From Candidatus Heimdallarchaeota archaeon (GTDB taxonomy: Archaea; Asgardarchaeota; Heimdallarchaeia; Hodarchaeales; Hodarchaeaceae): a DNA stretch of 64,000 bases. Where the stretch lies: assembly GCA_020353515.1 (NCBI GenBank), contig CP070695.1, forward strand, positions 4,394,823-4,458,822. The letters run 5' to 3'. Both the position numbers and the translations under genes were made by a program. The notes beneath the pieces are model-generated. The model had not been told where the DNA came from. It made no database searches and was given only the letters and a program-made list of their open reading frames with translations. Shown here piece by piece: positions 8,524 to 12,719 of the stretch (position 1 is its first letter; each line of letters begins with the position of its first letter).

Positions 8524-8931
8524 TCAGGCTTCTCTCCAGTCCCAGGATCCCGTTTTTCGCCACCGACAATAAGCCCAAATCCAGGTTTGAATCATTATGG
8601 CAGCATCATACGCTGTATATGAATAATGCCAGTCCTTTTGAGGTCTAAGGTAACAAATTTCTGTATGGCCGTATTTGTCCGTTCTATGCACATGATGGGT
8701 TTTATAAGATAACCTAGGCTCCGTAATCCATGCGCGAGGCGGGGCTGTTGGATAAGTATGGGGAAATTCAATTAACACGTGAAATCGCCCACATGCATAG
8801 GGACCTGTTGTTTCATATTTAACACGCACGCAGATATTTCCATTTTCCAAATAGAAAAAATCTTCTTTTGTTAATGAGGGAAATACTCCTTGTAATTCAT
8901 GAAGTTCCTGATCAACTGTTCGAGTCCGCAA
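8524..8931 (-). CDS. E2/UBC-like protein, paralog B (135 aa)
   Basis: IEFPHTYPTAPPRAW..EP....HHV....GHTEICYL....W UBC-like signature with candidate catalytic Cys. Start re-placed at TTG 8931 (GGTGA RBS, 7 nt after paralog A stop); this N-terminus aligns with paralog A. Confidence 0.75.
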   Translation of the reverse strand: MRTRTVDQELHELQGVFPSLTKEDFFYLENGNICVRVKYETTGPYACGRFHVLIEFPHTYPTAPPRAWITEPRLSYKTHHVHRTDKYGHTEICYLRPQKDWHYSYTAYDAAIMIQTWIWAYCRWRKTGSWDWREA

Positions 8932-8938
8932 CTTAAGG

Positions 8939-9379
8939 TCACCCACGGAATAAATGATCCCAAAATCCTGCTTCAGGGAAATCCCAATCTCCTGTTTTAG
9001 TCCAGCGACAGTAGGTTGTAAGCCATGTTTCAATCATCTTTGCAGCTTCATATGACGTATAACTTAGATGCCAGTCCTTTTTTGGACGTAAATAACAAAT
9101 TAATGCATGGCCAGTTTCATCCCACCGAAAAACATGGGGAGTCTTTTGTGGGATCCGAGGCTTTTGAACCCAAGCCTTTGGTGCGCTAATTGGATAATTA
9201 TAGGGATATTCAATAAGAACATCGAAAGAACCACAGGCAAATTTACCTGTAGTAATGAAGCTGACTTGAACACAGTAATTCCCATTTGGGAGTTTACGAA
9301 AATCTTTCCTTCTTATATCAGGAAATGTTTTTCGTAAGGGGTCAAGTTCCCGTTCAGGAATAGTTTGTCGTAGTAGCAT
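8939..9379 (-). CDS. E2/UBC-like protein, paralog A (146 aa, ends ...HLFRG)
   Basis: IEYPYNYPISAPKAW..KP.....PHV....GHALICYL....W UBC-like signature with candidate catalytic Cys. Confidence 0.78.
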   Translation of the reverse strand: MLLRQTIPERELDPLRKTFPDIRRKDFRKLPNGNYCVQVSFITTGKFACGSFDVLIEYPYNYPISAPKAWVQKPRIPQKTPHVFRWDETGHALICYLRPKKDWHLSYTSYEAAKMIETWLTTYCRWTKTGDWDFPEAGFWDHLFRG

Positions 9380-9388
9380 TCTTAAAGC

Positions 9389-10600
9389 CTATTCTATCTT
9401 TAATGCCTGAGTTCCATGAAAAGGACAGTTGGAATCTTTCTCCAAGTCTTCATAGTAATATAGCTCAAGTCCTTCAAATTTCACAGATGATTCATTAGAT
9501 TTCATTATCGTTCGGTTGAACCACATATAGAAGTTATGTGGGAAATGATATAGACTGTGTTCTCCCCCTGTGAGAAGAATGTCCAAGCAGAATTTCGAAA
9601 GCAATATGGTTAAATTGTCTACATCCAATCCTAATCCAGGTTGGGCTAGTTGTTCTTGCAACGTTCGATCATAACTAATTTTTTGTTCAAGTTCGATTGT
9701 AGTTGGGATTGCTTTAGTCTGAATAGTTCCATTCTCATCTGGTTTAGAATAAATACAATGATAACAGAAATCCTCATTCCTGGGGTCAACCTTGAACATT
9801 AATCCCCCCTTGACTCCATCAAAGGTTCCTGCATAAATAACAGGGATATTTAACTGATTGGAATGGATAAAGTCATTAATAGCATAATTAACGTCATGTT
9901 CTCCTGAAACTGCGGCAATTAAGTCCATATCCAGAAGAATACTATTAAAAAAGTCAAAATCAGCTTTTGTGTGTAGATCAAATTTACGTTCAACGGTCTG
10001 TATTTTTACATCGGGGATTCTTGCTTTAATATAATCTTTCACTGCTAATGTCTTGAATCGACCAAGATTATCGAGATCACAGATATGCCTGATAATGTTA
10101 TGAGTCTCCAAATGGTCATCATCGATAAAGATAAATTCTTTCACACCTGATTTAGCAAGATATAATGCTAGTAATGCTCCTCCAGACCCCATACCTATAA
10201 TAGCAACCCTTTTCTTATTCAATACTCTTAAGGGAGCTTCTTTTTCATCTATACGCACAAAGAGTCGATTAAGATCAATGTACTCAATATCAACATCGAT
10301 ATTAGAATCTTTATTCTCTTCATTATGGTAAACATCGGCTTTTAGGGTTGAGAGATTCTCTTCTACCATGATATGAATATATGGATACTCAAGACTTTTC
10401 GCTGTAATGATAGGTTCTTCCATCGTGGTAGTTCCAGTCGTTAATAGTCCAATTGGATACGTACTTTTTGAAAATGAGACCCCTGTTAAGTGACATACAG
10501 TGAAATTGTCATAAATCCTTCCATAAAGTAAATAAGTTCTATTTTGAGTTTTTAAATTCTTAAATTCATTTTCAAATGTAGGATAAATGATAATTTTCAT
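9389..10600 (-). CDS. ThiF/MoeB/E1-like adenylyltransferase with ~115-aa N-terminal extension
   Basis: VAIIGMGSGG, IDDDHLETHNIIRH, GRFKT, Zn ligands CYHC...CPFH; the region before PGLG lacks Cys. Confidence 0.88.
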   Translation of the reverse strand: MKIIIYPTFENEFKNLKTQNRTYLLYGRIYDNFTVCHLTGVSFSKSTYPIGLLTTGTTTMEEPIITAKSLEYPYIHIMVEENLSTLKADVYHNEENKDSNIDVDIEYIDLNRLFVRIDEKEAPLRVLNKKRVAIIGMGSGGALLALYLAKSGVKEFIFIDDDHLETHNIIRHICDLDNLGRFKTLAVKDYIKARIPDVKIQTVERKFDLHTKADFDFFNSILLDMDLIAAVSGEHDVNYAINDFIHSNQLNIPVIYAGTFDGVKGGLMFKVDPRNEDFCYHCIYSKPDENGTIQTKAIPTTIELEQKISYDRTLQEQLAQPGLGLDVDNLTILLSKFCLDILLTGGEHSLYHFPHNFYMWFNRTIMKSNESSVKFEGLELYYYEDLEKDSNCPFHGTQALKIE

Positions 10601-10611
10601 TGTTTACACCA

Positions 10612-11529
10612 TTATTTTACCATTAATTTCCACAATGGTTCTTTCAATAAATTAGAGATCTTTTCTTCTAATGTTGCTTTGAGTAGCTCAAGAAAAGGAT
10701 TTATTAGTTCTTCTTCATAGAGGACATTTGCAGGATGTTTTTCGATTGTAAACCTTTGTGATAAGTCCTGTGAAGAAATATCAATATAAATTTGGTCTTC
10801 TGGGAATTCAGGAGGGAATGAAATAAGAATTAAGAGCTCTAGGGTTTTTTTATGCTCCTCCGTTTCGATAACAACGTCATATGGAAAAGATAATATCGCT
10901 TCATTCGGTGTAGAGAAGAAATGATGAATATCTTCGATTTTAAATTTTGATTCAAAAACTTGGATTAATTCTCGTTTTATGGGGGACAGCTGTTCTTTAG
11001 TGATTCCCACATCTTCTGAATAATAAGATATATTACTCTCAGCTATCCTGAAAGTTTGAAAAGTGTTTTCAGTTCCTTCTTCATTTTTCTCTCTTCGATA
11101 CACTTCTGCAATCACTGTATGAGTATCTTCTATAGGTAAATCGATGATCAATGATACCACAGTATTTTTATGAGGATTAAGGGTAAAAAACTCTCTTATT
11201 TGTTGATGATCCCCGTAACTTGGTCCCCCGTAACCAAGATGTTTATGCCAATTCCCCAAATATAGTAACTTCTCTGTATCAAGAATTAATCTTGCATATT
11301 CAGGATTTATTTCAAAATAGGTATTATTCCTAATAGACTCTTCAACGGATGGGATATAGGTTTTTACAATCTTTATTAGTAATCCTGATTCATTATCATA
11401 AATCTTCCCAAACATCATTCCCCCTGTTTCTTTTCCATGCCATTTGGTGGATTCTTCTATCATTTCATTGAACACACTACGATTTAGTTCAACAAAAATG
11501 GTCTCAGCTTGATTCTCCAACAATGACAA
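10612..11529 (-). CDS. JAB/MPN+ (JAMM) metalloprotease fused to C-terminal UBC/RWD-like domain
   Basis: ETGGMMFG and YLGNWHKHLGYGGPSYGD (E...HxH...SxxD); C-term LLILISFPPEFPED resembles the UBC/RWD FPxxYP motif. Start re-placed at TTG 11529 after the purine-rich AGGAAGAGGG; the track start 11625 overlaps the upstream peptide ORF. Confidence 0.8.
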   Translation of the reverse strand: MSLLENQAETIFVELNRSVFNEMIEESTKWHGKETGGMMFGKIYDNESGLLIKIVKTYIPSVEESIRNNTYFEINPEYARLILDTEKLLYLGNWHKHLGYGGPSYGDHQQIREFFTLNPHKNTVVSLIIDLPIEDTHTVIAEVYRREKNEEGTENTFQTFRIAESNISYYSEDVGITKEQLSPIKRELIQVFESKFKIEDIHHFFSTPNEAILSFPYDVVIETEEHKKTLELLILISFPPEFPEDQIYIDISSQDLSQRFTIEKHPANVLYEEELINPFLELLKATLEEKISNLLKEPLWKLMVK

Positions 11530-11578
11530 GACCCTCTTCCTTCTAGTTATAACTGAAAAGGAAAAATTAATAGGGAGA

Positions 11579-11680
11579 TTAGTAATGTTTGGATATTGGA
11601 ACGGTATCTTTGTTCTCTTCGGCATCTTCAGTTGCTTTTTCTTTTGATTCTGTGTCTACTCTTTTTACTGGTCGGGGCAA
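11579..11680 (-). CDS. Unannotated 33-aa peptide MPRPVKRVDTESKEKATEDAEENKDTVPISKHY, first gene of the JAB-E1-E2-E2 operon
   Basis: Perfect AGGAGG (11694-11689) 8 nt before TTG 11680, TAA at 11581-11579, TATA-like element about 45 nt upstream. Confidence 0.7.
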   Translation of the reverse strand: MPRPVKRVDTESKEKATEDAEENKDTVPISKHY

Positions 11681-11721
11681 CGATTTAACCTCCTAAAAAC
11701 TACAATTAAGGGGAAAAAACC

Positions 11722-11738
11722 AATATTTATTAATCTTT
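11722..11738 (-). promoter_or_regulatory. Putative archaeal BRE/TATA promoter of the peptide-JAB-E1-E2-E2 operon
   Basis: Minus strand reads AAAGATTAATAAATATT, about 30 nt upstream of the AGGAGG RBS. Confidence 0.4.
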
Positions 11739-11852: not shown

Positions 11853-12719
11853 ATGAAGCCTAAAATATGTATTGTTACAGGAGCCAATCGGGGAATTGGT
11901 AAGGGGATTGCTAAGGCTATCGCTAAACAAGGACATCAAGTTGTCTTAGTCTGTAGAAACGCCATAATGGGAGATAAGGTTGTGAAATCGCTCCAACAAT
12001 CCTTTGGGGAAACATCTGCAGAACTAGTTGAAGGTAATCTTTCTTCAATCAAAAAGGTTAAAGCTGTGGGGGATAAATTATTAAGTAAATATGAACAGAT
12101 TAATGTTCTGATTCATAATGCAGGAGTATGGCCCTCCAAATTGAACAAAACTGAAAAGGGAATTGAGTGTGCATTCATGGTAAATCATCTTGCGCCCTTT
12201 TATTTAACCCACCAACTTCTTGGACGATTAATGGAGAGCGCTCCTTCACGAATTGTGCTTGTTAATGCAGGACTCTATTCACGAGGAACATTTAATCCAG
12301 AGTTAACCCCATGGGGAGGTGATTTCAGTAAATTAAAAACATATATGAATTCTAAACTCTGTGGAATGTTGTATATGCGAAAATTTGCACCAATGTTGGA
12401 AGGATCAGGGGTAATCATTAATGCAGTTCATCCAGGAGTGATTCGTACAGGACTGGGAGATTTCAGTGGCTTTGTGGGAATTTTACTAAAAATAACTAAG
12501 TTATTTCAACGATCAGTTAAATTTGGGGCGAGGGGGCCTACTAATCTTGCATCAAATTCTGAAATAACCACCAATGGAAGTTTTTATGATAAATTGGAAC
12601 GAAAAGACATTGGTTTAAAGGCCCTTGATGATGAATTAGCGGAAAAACTGTGGAATCTTAGTTTAGAGCTATGTGGTATAAGAGAGTATGGTGTTTATAA
12701 CGAGAATAAACTTCAATGA
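11853..12719 (+). CDS. Short-chain dehydrogenase/reductase (retinol-DH-like)
   Basis: TGANRGIG, HNAG, VNHLAPF, YMNSK (YxxxK), VHPGVIRT. Confidence 0.9.
   Translation: MKPKICIVTGANRGIGKGIAKAIAKQGHQVVLVCRNAIMGDKVVKSLQQSFGETSAELVEGNLSSIKKVKAVGDKLLSKYEQINVLIHNAGVWPSKLNKTEKGIECAFMVNHLAPFYLTHQLLGRLMESAPSRIVLVNAGLYSRGTFNPELTPWGGDFSKLKTYMNSKLCGMLYMRKFAPMLEGSGVIINAVHPGVIRTGLGDFSGFVGILLKITKLFQRSVKFGARGPTNLASNSEITTNGSFYDKLERKDIGLKALDDELAEKLWNLSLELCGIREYGVYNENKLQ

What the first reader, a model, noticed from the sequence alone, without database searches (positions are those of the whole stretch)
8524..11694. Ubiquitin-like conjugation operon (peptide - JAB/UBC - E1 - E2 - E2) with no ubiquitin-fold modifier
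Seen: five co-oriented genes with gaps of 49, 11, 9 and 7 nt. They encode a 33-aa peptide, a JAMM protease with an intact metal motif, a ThiF/E1 adenylase, and two E2-like paralogs each with an ICYL cysteine. Known: E1/E2/JAB sets normally act on a beta-grasp Ubl ending in GG (ubiquitin, SAMP, ThiS/MoaD) or on a CD-NTase C-terminus (CBASS Cap2/Cap3). Neither a Ubl nor a CD-NTase gene is in or near the operon. Inference: this is a self-contained ligation/deconjugation machine with an unconventional substrate, either a new protein-tagging system or a RiPP-like peptide modification pathway, possibly antiviral. If the host is Asgard, it also bears on the pre-eukaryotic diversity of ubiquitin-like systems.
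Basis: partly seen in the sequence, partly recalled or inferred. Interest (0 to 1): 0.93.

Follow-up and report, generated by a model that had tools for sequence, protein, structure and literature searches.

The report
Asgard peptide-linked E1/E2/JAB conjugation operon
An Asgard (Hodarchaeales) archaeon carries a ubiquitin-style activating, conjugating and deconjugating enzyme set whose first gene encodes a 33-residue peptide instead of a ubiquitin-fold protein; the peptide is more conserved than the enzymes, so it is probably the tag that they attach.

Summary
Five minus-strand genes lie at the stated gaps (49, 11, 9, 7 nt). They encode a 33-aa peptide, a JAMM protease with an extra C-terminal domain, a ThiF-type E1, and two UBC-fold E2 paralogs that each keep an invariant Cys.

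The peptide gene is real.
- It recurs in every related locus that is assembled that far.
- It is 85-94% identical where the JAB protein is 43-72% identical.
- Variable sites by codon position are 7/4/30, and dN is far below dS.
- It has its own Shine-Dalgarno sequence and a conserved promoter-like box.
- It occurs once per genome, and only where the operon is present.

A second, longer peptide subfamily keeps MPRP at the start and TVP[IV]THHY near the end. After that come unrelated tails of 5-14 residues, as in ubiquitin-like precursors that are trimmed.

The enzymes are closest to CBASS Cap2/Cap3 and Atg7. The genome has no CD-NTase, and no beta-grasp gene lies in the window. Canonical ubiquitin and E2 genes sit more than 400 kb away.

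Best reading (about 0.5): the peptide is the dedicated substrate. Its C-terminal Tyr is activated, passed to an E2 Cys, ligated to targets, and removed or trimmed by the JAB protease. No conjugation has been shown. I found no description of this in the searched literature.

The parts
11725..11738 (-). Conserved promoter-like box AAAGATTAATAAAT (archaeal BRE/TATA-like), 44 nt upstream of the peptide start
   Evidence: The same box lies at the same distance in nearly all of the 20 upstream regions shown, while the sequence around it is not conserved. Promoter function is inferred.
11689..11694 (-). Shine-Dalgarno AGGAGG, 8 nt before the peptide start codon
   Evidence: GGAG is present at the same place in the relatives.
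11579..11680 (-). 33-aa peptide gene (TTG start here, ATG in nearly all relatives). N-terminus MPRP, acidic middle, C-terminus TVPISKHY. Candidate modifier or substrate.
   Evidence: 85-94% amino-acid identity to relatives where JAB is 43-72%. Variable sites by codon position 7/4/30, dN 0-0.19, dS 0.44 to saturated. One copy per genome, only in operon-bearing genomes. Called independently as a gene in public data, P0150-P0168.
10612..11529 (-). JAMM/JAB metalloprotease (about residues 1-175) fused to a conserved C-terminal domain of about 130 aa with no assigned fold and no Cys
   Evidence: Prok-JAB in 11/11 members. CBASS JAB (Cap3) model 1.6e-10. Invariant E34, HxH, S, D. C-terminal domain against the operon's E2 profile: hhalign E 0.006, Prob 6%, which is suggestive only.
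9389..10600 (-). E1: N-terminal domain of about 120 aa plus a ThiF-type adenylation domain with a Cys3His Zn site. No invariant crossover-loop Cys.
   Evidence: ThiF 6e-27. CBASS E1-E2 (Cap2) models up to 3e-29, with one alignment reaching back to residue 34. PDB profile hits PaaA, ThiF, Cap2 and MccB at about 1e-9. Only Atg7, Cap2 and BubCD align over more than 410 columns. Invariant GxGSGG, D160, R171, K183; the only invariant Cys residues are C279, C282 and C392.
8939..9379 (-). E2a: minimal UBC-fold E2 (146 aa), catalytic Cys95 in I-C-Y-L
   Evidence: AF2 pLDDT 85. Best structural match is the CBASS E2 8yjy_B (Z 10.8, 130 residues aligned); the other rows are all UBC/UEV folds. The top Atlas cluster is 100% PF26395 E2-CBASS. 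CBASS E2 model 1.7e-7.
8524..8931 (-). E2b: paralog of E2a (135 aa, 54-55% identical), same invariant Cys, His and Trp
   Evidence: UQ_con 7.6e-5. CBASS E2 model 3.5e-9. Both paralogs are present in all full-length loci of the 33-aa subfamily.

Best explanation
This is a self-contained conjugation cassette related to the CBASS Cap2/Cap3 module and to Atg7-type non-canonical E1s. Its dedicated substrate is the 33-aa, probably disordered peptide encoded by the first cistron, not a beta-grasp protein or a CD-NTase. Shown here: the five genes form a conserved unit; the peptide is a real gene under very strong purifying selection and is strictly linked to the enzymes; the adenylation site, the JAMM site and both E2 cysteines are intact and invariant. 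Inferred from the families: the homodimeric E1 binds the peptide's C-terminal tail and adenylates the carboxylate of the terminal Tyr (motif TVPISKHY). The E1 has no conserved crossover-loop Cys, so the acyl group would pass directly to Cys95 of E2a and/or E2b. The E2 would then ligate the peptide to a Lys of a target, or to one of the peptide's own invariant Lys residues. The JAB protease would reverse the linkage. In variants that carry extra residues after ..HY, it would also trim the precursor to expose the Tyr. The biological role is unknown. A conflict or defence role is plausible but weakly supported.
For: The peptide gene is present in first position in every locus where the contig reaches that far: 10 genus genomes, 9 metagenome loci, L028 with E1 at 49% identity, and L029, L055 and L056. 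In a six-frame profile search of 400 Asgard genomes it is found once each in 12 genomes, all of the genus, and exactly those with the operon. It is the most conserved gene of the operon: 85-94% identity against JAB 43-72%, E1 57-87% and E2a 64-92%. Variable sites by codon position are 7/4/30 and dN is far below dS. Conservation ends exactly at ..HY. Most copies stop there. Others add S, F, GN or RN. The 45-aa-core subfamily adds unrelated tails of 5-14 residues. This is the pattern of Ubl precursors trimmed by their protease. The enzymes are intact: E1 nucleotide-site residues are invariant over 53 sequences, the JAMM motif over 11, and E2 Cys, His and Trp over 22. The nearest relatives conjugate a disordered C-terminal tail rather than a Ubl: the PADLOC CBASS models hit JAB, E1-E2 and E2, the structures match Cap2 and Atg7, and E2a matches the CBASS E2. 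According to 10.1101/2022.03.31.486616, the Cap2 substrate is the disordered, conserved C-terminal tail of the CD-NTase, Cap3 cuts exactly after its last residue, and the E1 Cys is dispensable in vitro. No other gene is conserved next to the cassette. The window has no Ubl and the genome has no CD-NTase.
Against: No chemistry is shown. A bulky C-terminal Tyr is unprecedented for an E1: Ubls and CD-NTases end in Gly or another small residue, and a Gly-to-Glu change abolishes Cap2 function. In the 45-aa-core subfamily the tail overlaps the start of the JAB gene, so the variable tails could be a neutral by-product of gene overlap rather than propeptides. The genome encodes ubiquitin-like and ThiS-like proteins elsewhere that the E1 could in principle use. 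More distant JAB-E1-E2 operons (E1 35-38% identical) show no such peptide upstream. The fold of the E1 N-terminal domain and of the JAB C-terminal domain is unresolved.
Confidence: 0.5

Rival explanations
1. The peptide is a non-covalent partner (regulatory subunit, adaptor, pseudo-substrate or inhibitor) or a lysine acceptor. The E1/E2/JAB enzymes then conjugate something else, for example the genome's own ubiquitin or SAMP proteins, or the C-terminus of another protein.
For: The genome has two PF00240 and six PF02597 matches, plus four canonical UQ_con genes elsewhere. The peptide has three invariant Lys residues. Tolerance of extra C-terminal residues fits a role that does not need a free Tyr carboxylate. 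Distant JAB-E1-E2 operons lack the peptide.
Against: The canonical ubiquitin genes sit next to their own canonical E2 genes, more than 400 kb away. The closest relatives of this cassette act on a substrate encoded in the same operon. Conservation is highest in the last eight residues and stops exactly at ..HY. That is hard to explain for a mere acceptor or adaptor.
Confidence: 0.22
2. This is a RiPP-like pathway. The E1 modifies the ribosomal peptide, as MccB does with MccA or PaaA with PaaP, into a small natural product or cofactor, and the JAB protease acts as the maturation protease.
For: The best PDB sequence hits of the E1 profile include PaaA (7.8e-10) and MccB (about 5e-9). Both are peptide-modifying E1-like enzymes with an N-terminal domain of about 110-125 aa before the ThiF domain. 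A short precursor gene heads the operon.
Against: ThiF and Cap2 score equally well. In Foldseek, MccB and PaaA align only over the adenylation domain (261-283 columns), whereas Atg7 and Cap2 align over more than 410. Two UBC-fold E2s with invariant catalytic Cys have no role in known RiPP routes. No exporter, immunity or tailoring gene is conserved beside the cassette. The whole 33 residues are constrained, unlike a leader/core layout.
Confidence: 0.1
3. The 33-codon ORF is not a functional protein. It would be a regulatory upstream ORF, or the conserved DNA or RNA serves another purpose.
For: It is very short and lies directly upstream of the JAB gene.
Against: Substitutions are concentrated at third codon positions (7/4/30), with saturated dS and dN of 0-0.19. 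The amino-acid sequence is kept while the flanking non-coding DNA is only 46% identical in the ungapped comparison. A strong SD and a start codon are conserved.
Confidence: 0.02

Closest known systems
Type II CBASS accessory module Cap2 (E2-linker-E1) and Cap3 (JAB)
   Same: It gives the best sequence-model hits for all four enzymes and the best structural hit for the E2 (8yjy_B). Cap2 is among the few structures aligning over the whole E1. Its substrate is a disordered, conserved C-terminal tail rather than a beta-grasp fold, and the JAB protease cuts exactly after the last residue.
   Different: Here the E2 is not fused to the E1 and is duplicated. The JAB protein carries an extra C-terminal domain. 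The E1 has no conserved crossover-loop Cys. The operon has no CD-NTase or effector gene and the genome has no CD-NTase. The presumed substrate is a free 33-aa peptide ending in Tyr. The E2s keep the Pro-rich motif and the Trp eight residues after the Cys, features that the preprint says the Cap2 E2 lacks.
Atg7 with its two E2s, Atg3 and Atg10 (eukaryotic autophagy conjugation)
   Same: Yeast Atg7 is the top Foldseek hit over the whole E1 (3vh1, E 2e-15, 433 columns). It shares the N-terminal domain plus homodimeric ThiF-type adenylation domain layout, has one E1 serving two separate small E2s, and has E2s lacking the last UBC helices. In the second peptide subfamily the single E2 is fused to a membrane-spanning region, which loosely recalls membrane-directed Atg3.
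   Different: There is no Atg8/Atg12-like beta-grasp modifier. Homology of the N-terminal domain is not established (rmsd about 20 Å for the global alignment). Atg3 and Atg10 are not among the top E2 matches. Atg7 has a crossover-loop Cys.
Bil (BilABCD) and Bub (BubA-E) bacterial ubiquitination-like operons
   Same: They are stand-alone operons with E1, E2 and a JAB-type peptidase. The peptidase pre-processes the modifier's C-terminus. The Bub E1 lacks a catalytic Cys.
   Different: Bil and Bub encode beta-grasp Ubls ending in Gly. Bub works through Ser oxyesters and has the BubE serine protease. Here the E2 Cys is invariant and there is no Ubl.
MccB/MccA and PaaA/PaaP (E1-like enzymes acting on ribosomal peptides)
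   Same: An E1-like adenylating enzyme is encoded next to a very short peptide gene, and the PDB sequence hits are of equal strength.
   Different: Those pathways have no E2 or JAB partners. Here there are no export or immunity genes. The structural alignment is limited to the adenylation domain.
Pup-PafA/Dop pupylation (from general knowledge, not tested here)
   Same: A small, non-beta-grasp, largely disordered polypeptide used as a covalent protein tag, with a dedicated enzyme that both matures the tag and removes it.
   Different: Pup is ligated through a side-chain carboxylate by glutamine-synthetase-like enzymes, with no E1, E2 or JAB. There is no sequence similarity.

Membership tests
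Type II CBASS Cap2/Cap3 system | ThiF-type adenylation domain of the Cap2 kind | tested here: met
   PADLOC E1-E2 models up to 3e-29. PDB Cap2 4e-9. 7to3_A E 9e-15.
Type II CBASS Cap2/Cap3 system | E2 domain fused to the E1 through a linker domain | tested here: not met
   The E2s are two separate genes in all loci.
Type II CBASS Cap2/Cap3 system | Linker / Atg7-NTD-like domain preceding the adenylation domain | tested here: inconclusive
   One Cap2 model aligns from residue 34. There is an Atlas feature lead to Cap2_linker at 0.78. Whole-length Foldseek alignments are found only to Atg7, Cap2 and BubCD. VIA does not resolve the domain, and its profile finds nothing in the PDB.
Type II CBASS Cap2/Cap3 system | CD-NTase and effector genes in the operon | tested here: not met
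   The whole genome has no SMODS match. No conserved neighbour lies beside the five genes.
Type II CBASS Cap2/Cap3 system | JAB (Cap3) with intact JAMM site | tested here: met
   PADLOC JAB 1.6e-10. Invariant E, HxH, S, D.
Type II CBASS Cap2/Cap3 system | E1 catalytic Cys on the crossover loop | tested here: not met
   Only C279, C282 and C392 (the Zn site) are invariant. There is no Cys in the loop at 283-330.
Canonical ubiquitin-type system (Ub, E1, UBC E2) | Beta-grasp modifier ending in Gly-Gly encoded with the enzymes | tested here: not met
   The window has no PF00240 or PF02597 match. No conserved ORF of 90 aa or more lies beside the cassette in 16 loci.
Canonical ubiquitin-type system (Ub, E1, UBC E2) | UBC fold with catalytic Cys and a Trp eight residues downstream | tested here: met
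   All 126 PDB profile hits are E2s, though weak, with E from 0.014.
Canonical ubiquitin-type system (Ub, E1, UBC E2) | HPN motif before the Cys; Pfam UQ_con above its threshold | tested here: not met
   The sequence is P-H-V/I with the His 13 residues before the Cys. UQ_con scores 22.8 bits against a cut-off of 27 for E2b and gives no hit for E2a.
Bub (6E) operons | Ser-based E2 (oxyester), Ubl ending in Gly, BubE/DUF6527 protease | tested here: not met
   The E2 Cys is invariant. There is no Ubl and no further conserved gene. Features taken.
RiPP E1-like enzymes (MccB, PaaA) | N-terminal RRE / peptide-clamp domain | tested here: inconclusive
   The domain layout has the same length, but MccB and PaaA align only over the adenylation domain.
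RiPP E1-like enzymes (MccB, PaaA) | Adjacent short precursor gene plus export, immunity or tailoring genes | tested here: inconclusive
   A precursor-like gene is present. No export or immunity genes are conserved.

The most novel reading that the evidence does not exclude
A ribosomal peptide of 33 residues, with no ubiquitin fold and ending in Tyr, serves as a covalent protein (or membrane) tag. It is written by an Atg7/Cap2-like E1 and two minimal UBC E2s and erased by a JAB protease. This occurs in Hodarchaeales, an Asgard order that has been proposed as the closest relative of eukaryotes. It would be the first E1-E2 cascade whose modifier is a free peptide rather than a beta-grasp domain or an enzyme's tail.
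Probability: 0.45. Interest if true: 0.9.

Novelty: new variant of a known kind. Interest (0 to 1): 0.8.

Why it matters
Every E1-E2 conjugation system characterised so far transfers either a beta-grasp protein or, in CBASS, the tail of a large enzyme. If a bare 33-residue peptide is the modifier, the E1/E2/deconjugase chemistry does not need the ubiquitin fold. That bears on how ubiquitin-like tagging arose, and on the proposed link between Cap2-type systems and the Atg7/Atg3/Atg10 branch. The system sits in Hodarchaeales, next to but separate from a canonical ubiquitin set, so it adds a second, non-canonical conjugation route in an Asgard order proposed as the closest relative of eukaryotes. 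It is also very tractable. Five small genes can be reconstituted in vitro, and the tag is short enough to synthesise. If active, it could serve as a compact enzymatic peptide-ligation tool.

Tried and rejected
- Complex prediction (E1 dimer + ATP + peptide, own alignments) scored 0.04 and 0.31 against a mark of 0.32. The verdict was 'no answer', so it counts neither for nor against binding.
- PF26395 (E2-CBASS) and PF26398 (Cap2_linker) are not in the local Pfam copy. For these families I rely on precomputed labels on homologues and on Atlas cluster labels.
- E1 N-terminal domain: hhalign against the JAB domain found nothing. The Atlas feature search gave only leads below 0.9. VIA did not resolve the domain. 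Its profile against PDB sequences gave only chance-level rows. The idea that it is a dead JAB domain is not supported, but it is not excluded either.
- JAB C-terminal domain: Pfam found nothing in 11/11 members. The PDB profile search gave only ferritin at chance level. The Atlas gave no usable hit. hhalign to the operon's E2 gave E 0.006 and Prob 6%.
- The search for longer proteins carrying the peptide as a fused tail found none; the tool itself calls this weak evidence.
- Viral contigs hold neither the peptide nor the E2.
- The contigs of the distant E2 hits P0082, P0084 and P0090 were too short to give context.
- NCBIfam gave only sub-threshold hits, to 6A-MBL cap2_3 and to ThiF/MoeB.
- The TPR and C25 peptidase genes downstream in the window were considered as partners and rejected, because they are not conserved next to the cassette.
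It was rerun from stored files.


Full report
**Observation**

The window carries five tightly spaced genes on the minus strand.

| Gene | Coordinates (minus strand) | Size |
|---|---|---|
| peptide | 11680..11579 | 33 codons |
| JAB-domain protein | 11529..10612 | 305 aa |
| ThiF-type E1 | 10600..9389 | 403 aa |
| E2a | 9379..8939 | 146 aa |
| E2b | 8931..8524 | 135 aa |

A mechanical ORF list masks the peptide, because the JAB frame stays open up to an ATG at 11625 in a different frame.

Pfam gives ThiF at 6e-27, Prok-JAB at 3e-5, and weak UQ_con/RWD/UEV hits for E2b.

**Host**

The genome is a single 4.94-Mb contig. Close homologues of the E1 are labelled Hodarchaeales, Hodarchaeota, Heimdallarchaeota B3_Heim and Promethearchaeota. 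Species genomes of the same genus include Candidatus Hodarchaeum mangrovi. The host is therefore an Asgard archaeon of the Hodarchaeales.

**The peptide is a real gene and the most constrained one in the operon**

- tblastn against twelve related loci found the peptide at 85-94% amino-acid identity. In the same loci JAB is 43-72% identical, the E1 57-87%, E2a 64-92% and E2b 72-95%.
- All ten relatives in that comparison use ATG and have GGAG upstream.
- Among 11 sequences the variable sites fall 7/4/30 on codon positions 1/2/3. Nei-Gojobori dN is 0-0.19, while dS runs from 0.44 to saturation. The 80 nt upstream are only 46% identical in an ungapped comparison.
- A conserved box, AAAGATTAATAAAT, lies 44 nt before the start codon (window 11738..11725). 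It sits at the same place in nearly all upstream regions. It looks like an archaeal BRE/TATA promoter, which would make the peptide the first cistron. That function is inferred.

**Linkage**

- The E1 occurs at 58% identity or more in 12 of the 21 other genomes of the genus, plus one fragment. It is absent from the 19 genomes sampled from other families of the class.
- A six-frame profile search for the peptide in 400 genomes of the phylum gave 12 strong matches (E about 1e-22). All are in the genus, with one copy per genome, and they are exactly the operon-bearing genomes. The two E1-positive genomes without a peptide match have contigs that break inside the E1 or the JAB gene.
- A scan of metagenome contigs with peptide patterns returned nine further loci. 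In every one the JAB gene follows, and the full operon follows wherever the contig is long enough.
- Comparing the flanks of 16 loci, only the peptide, JAB, E1 and E2 genes are shared. The TPR and C25 peptidase genes downstream in the window are not.
- The cassette is patchy within the genus. At least three genomes that are 90% or more complete lack it.

**The C-terminus**

In the 33-aa subfamily 19 of 32 aligned positions are invariant over 16 sequences, including the final K-H-Y. Most copies stop right after the Tyr. Some add S, F, GN or RN.

A second subfamily was found through a more distant E1 (about 50% identical) and through called proteins in the 5.8-billion-protein collection.
- It has a 45-residue core that keeps MPRP at the start and TVP[IV]THHY at the end.
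- That core is followed by tails of 5-14 residues with no similarity to each other.

Conservation therefore ends exactly at ..HY. This is the pattern seen in ubiquitin-like precursors whose C-terminal extension is removed by the cognate protease, as reported for BilC/BilA and for BubCD/BubAB. One caveat applies. In the second subfamily the tail overlaps the start of the JAB gene, so a neutral origin of the tails cannot be excluded.

**The enzymes**

JAB protein
- E34, H95-x-H97, S104 and D107 are invariant, so the JAMM site is intact.
- The best models are the CBASS Cap3-type JAB models (1.6e-10).
- The C-terminal domain of about 130 residues is conserved, has no Cys and matches no family.
- A profile-profile comparison with the operon's own E2 aligns helix 1 and the sheet up to the F-P-x-x-F-P motif. 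At E 0.006 and Prob 6% this is only suggestive.

E1
- The nucleotide-binding residues are invariant over 53 sequences: GxGSGG, D160, R171 and K183.
- The only invariant cysteines are C279, C282 and C392. Together with H395 they look like the usual Zn site.
- The crossover loop (about 283-330, disordered in the model) has no conserved Cys.
- CBASS Cap2 models score up to 3e-29, and one alignment extends to residue 34.
- PDB sequence hits are PaaA, ThiF, Cap2 and MccB, all near 1e-9.
- In Foldseek only Atg7 (3vh1, E 2e-15), Cap2 (7to3_A, E 9e-15) and BubCD align over more than 410 columns. ThiF, MccB, PaaA and UBA5 align only over the adenylation domain.
- The N-terminal domain is modelled with confidence, but its relatives remain unresolved.

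E2a and E2b
- They are 54-55% identical to each other. H82, C95 (in I-C-Y), W103 and C124 are invariant in 22 sequences.
- The E2a model (pLDDT 85) has a UBC core without the last helices.
- Its best match is the CBASS E2 of the CdnG-E2 complex (8yjy_B: TM 0.64, Z 10.8). Then come TSG101 UEV, UFC1, the Cap2 E2 domain, BubB and canonical E2s at Z about 9-10.
- The nearest Atlas cluster is 100% PF26395 E2-CBASS.
- The family is rare: only 70 representatives at E of 1e-3 or better among 1.84 billion.

**What is absent**

- The window has no beta-grasp gene and the genome has no CD-NTase.
- The genome does have two ubiquitin-family genes, six ThiS-family genes and four canonical UQ_con genes. The ubiquitin genes and three of the four E2 genes cluster at 3.88-3.98 Mb, more than 400 kb from this operon. 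This cassette is therefore an additional, separate system.
- Neither the peptide nor the E2 is found in viral contigs.

**Mechanism proposed**

The closest characterised machine is Cap2/Cap3. According to the Cap2 preprint (10.1101/2022.03.31.486616):
- Cap2 adenylates the disordered, conserved C-terminal tail of its CD-NTase.
- Its linker domain resembles the Atg7 N-terminal domain, which recruits the separate E2s Atg3 and Atg10.
- Cap3 cleaves exactly after the last residue of the substrate.
- The E1 Cys is dispensable in vitro.

By analogy I propose the following steps. All of them are inferred.
1. The free peptide plays the part of that tail.
2. The JAB protease trims it where needed.
3. 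The E1 adenylates it on the terminal Tyr.
4. It passes directly to the Cys of E2a and/or E2b.
5. It is ligated to lysines of targets, or to its own invariant lysines.
6. The JAB protease removes it.

The steps shown here are gene reality, linkage, intact catalytic motifs and fold. I put this reading at about 0.5.

**Rival readings**

| Reading | Probability |
|---|---|
| Peptide is a non-covalent partner or an acceptor, and the enzymes act on another substrate | about 0.2 |
| RiPP-like pathway | about 0.1 |
| Non-functional or regulatory upstream ORF | about 0.02 |

A defence role is possible. It would fit the patchy distribution, the variable location, the CBASS ancestry, and the transposase, toxin-antitoxin, HORMA/AAA or STAND genes near some distant loci. 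The flanks in the genus itself look like housekeeping genes.

**Variation in the wider family**

- The second subfamily has a single E2 fused to a membrane-spanning region, and a two-AAA-domain ATPase lies 1.6-2.3 kb downstream.
- More distant JAB-E1-E2 operons (E1 35-38% identical, GC 49-61%) show no MPRP..HY peptide upstream.
- Some distant E2 homologues have Ser or no nucleophile in place of the Cys, or are fused to a kinase.

**Novelty**

Full-text searches on prokaryotic and Asgard ubiquitin-like systems turned up nothing about a peptide-headed E1/E2/JAB operon. The library is incomplete, so this is absence of a found description, not proof of novelty. Other first-stage notes of this scan on the same stretch made the same observation. 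They are not independent evidence.

I class the finding as a new variant of a known kind: a Cap2/Cap3-like conjugation module with a new type of substrate. If conjugation of the peptide is confirmed, it would be a new category of modifier.

Noticed in passing
window 11725-11738 (minus strand): The box AAAGATTAATAAAT lies 44 nt upstream of the peptide start. It is conserved in position and sequence in nearly all related loci, while the surrounding DNA is not. It is probably the operon's BRE/TATA promoter.
   Followed up: partly
L029:6763-10535, L055:9001-12575, L056:5848-8304: This is a second peptide subfamily, with a 45-aa core and unrelated tails of 5-14 aa, in very low-GC contigs (27-28% in the two measured, L055 and L056). 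It has a single E2 fused to a multi-pass membrane region instead of two soluble E2s. A two-AAA-domain ATPase lies 1.6-2.3 kb downstream, and transposase genes are nearby.
   Followed up: partly
L027:1-9543: This is a distant JAB-E1 operon (E1 36% identical). It has a Cys-less E2-like gene and an 86-aa Zn-ribbon protein that starts MPKPPKP and ends in Tyr-Tyr. A bacHORMA_2 gene and an AAA gene lie on the opposite strand, and an active-looking E2 lies 4.5 kb away. No MPRP..HY peptide was found upstream.
   Followed up: partly
proteins P0084, P0086, P0092, P0094, P0099, P0104, P0102: Distant homologues of the E2 differ at the catalytic position. Two have Ser there, which recalls the Bub oxyester E2s. 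Four acidic, haloarchaeon-like forms have no nucleophile and carry long N-terminal extensions starting MPR. One is a protein kinase-E2 fusion.
   Followed up: no
own genome G000:C1 about 3.884-3.982 Mb and 1.383-1.386 Mb: The canonical eukaryote-like ubiquitin set lies elsewhere: two PF00240 genes and three UQ_con genes at 3.88-3.98 Mb, and a fourth UQ_con gene next to a ThiF-family gene at 1.38 Mb. It is separate from the operon studied here.
   Followed up: partly
L015:1185-1548 and L030:5256-5619: Upstream of the operon in two relatives, the short-chain dehydrogenase that is intact in the window (11853-12719) survives only as tblastn fragments in different frames. It is apparently a decayed gene.
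   Followed up: no
window 8939-9379, last residues of E2a: The tail of E2a ending ..HLFRG, flagged in another first-stage note, is not conserved. Most relatives end two residues earlier, at ..DH[LIF][FL].
   Followed up: yes
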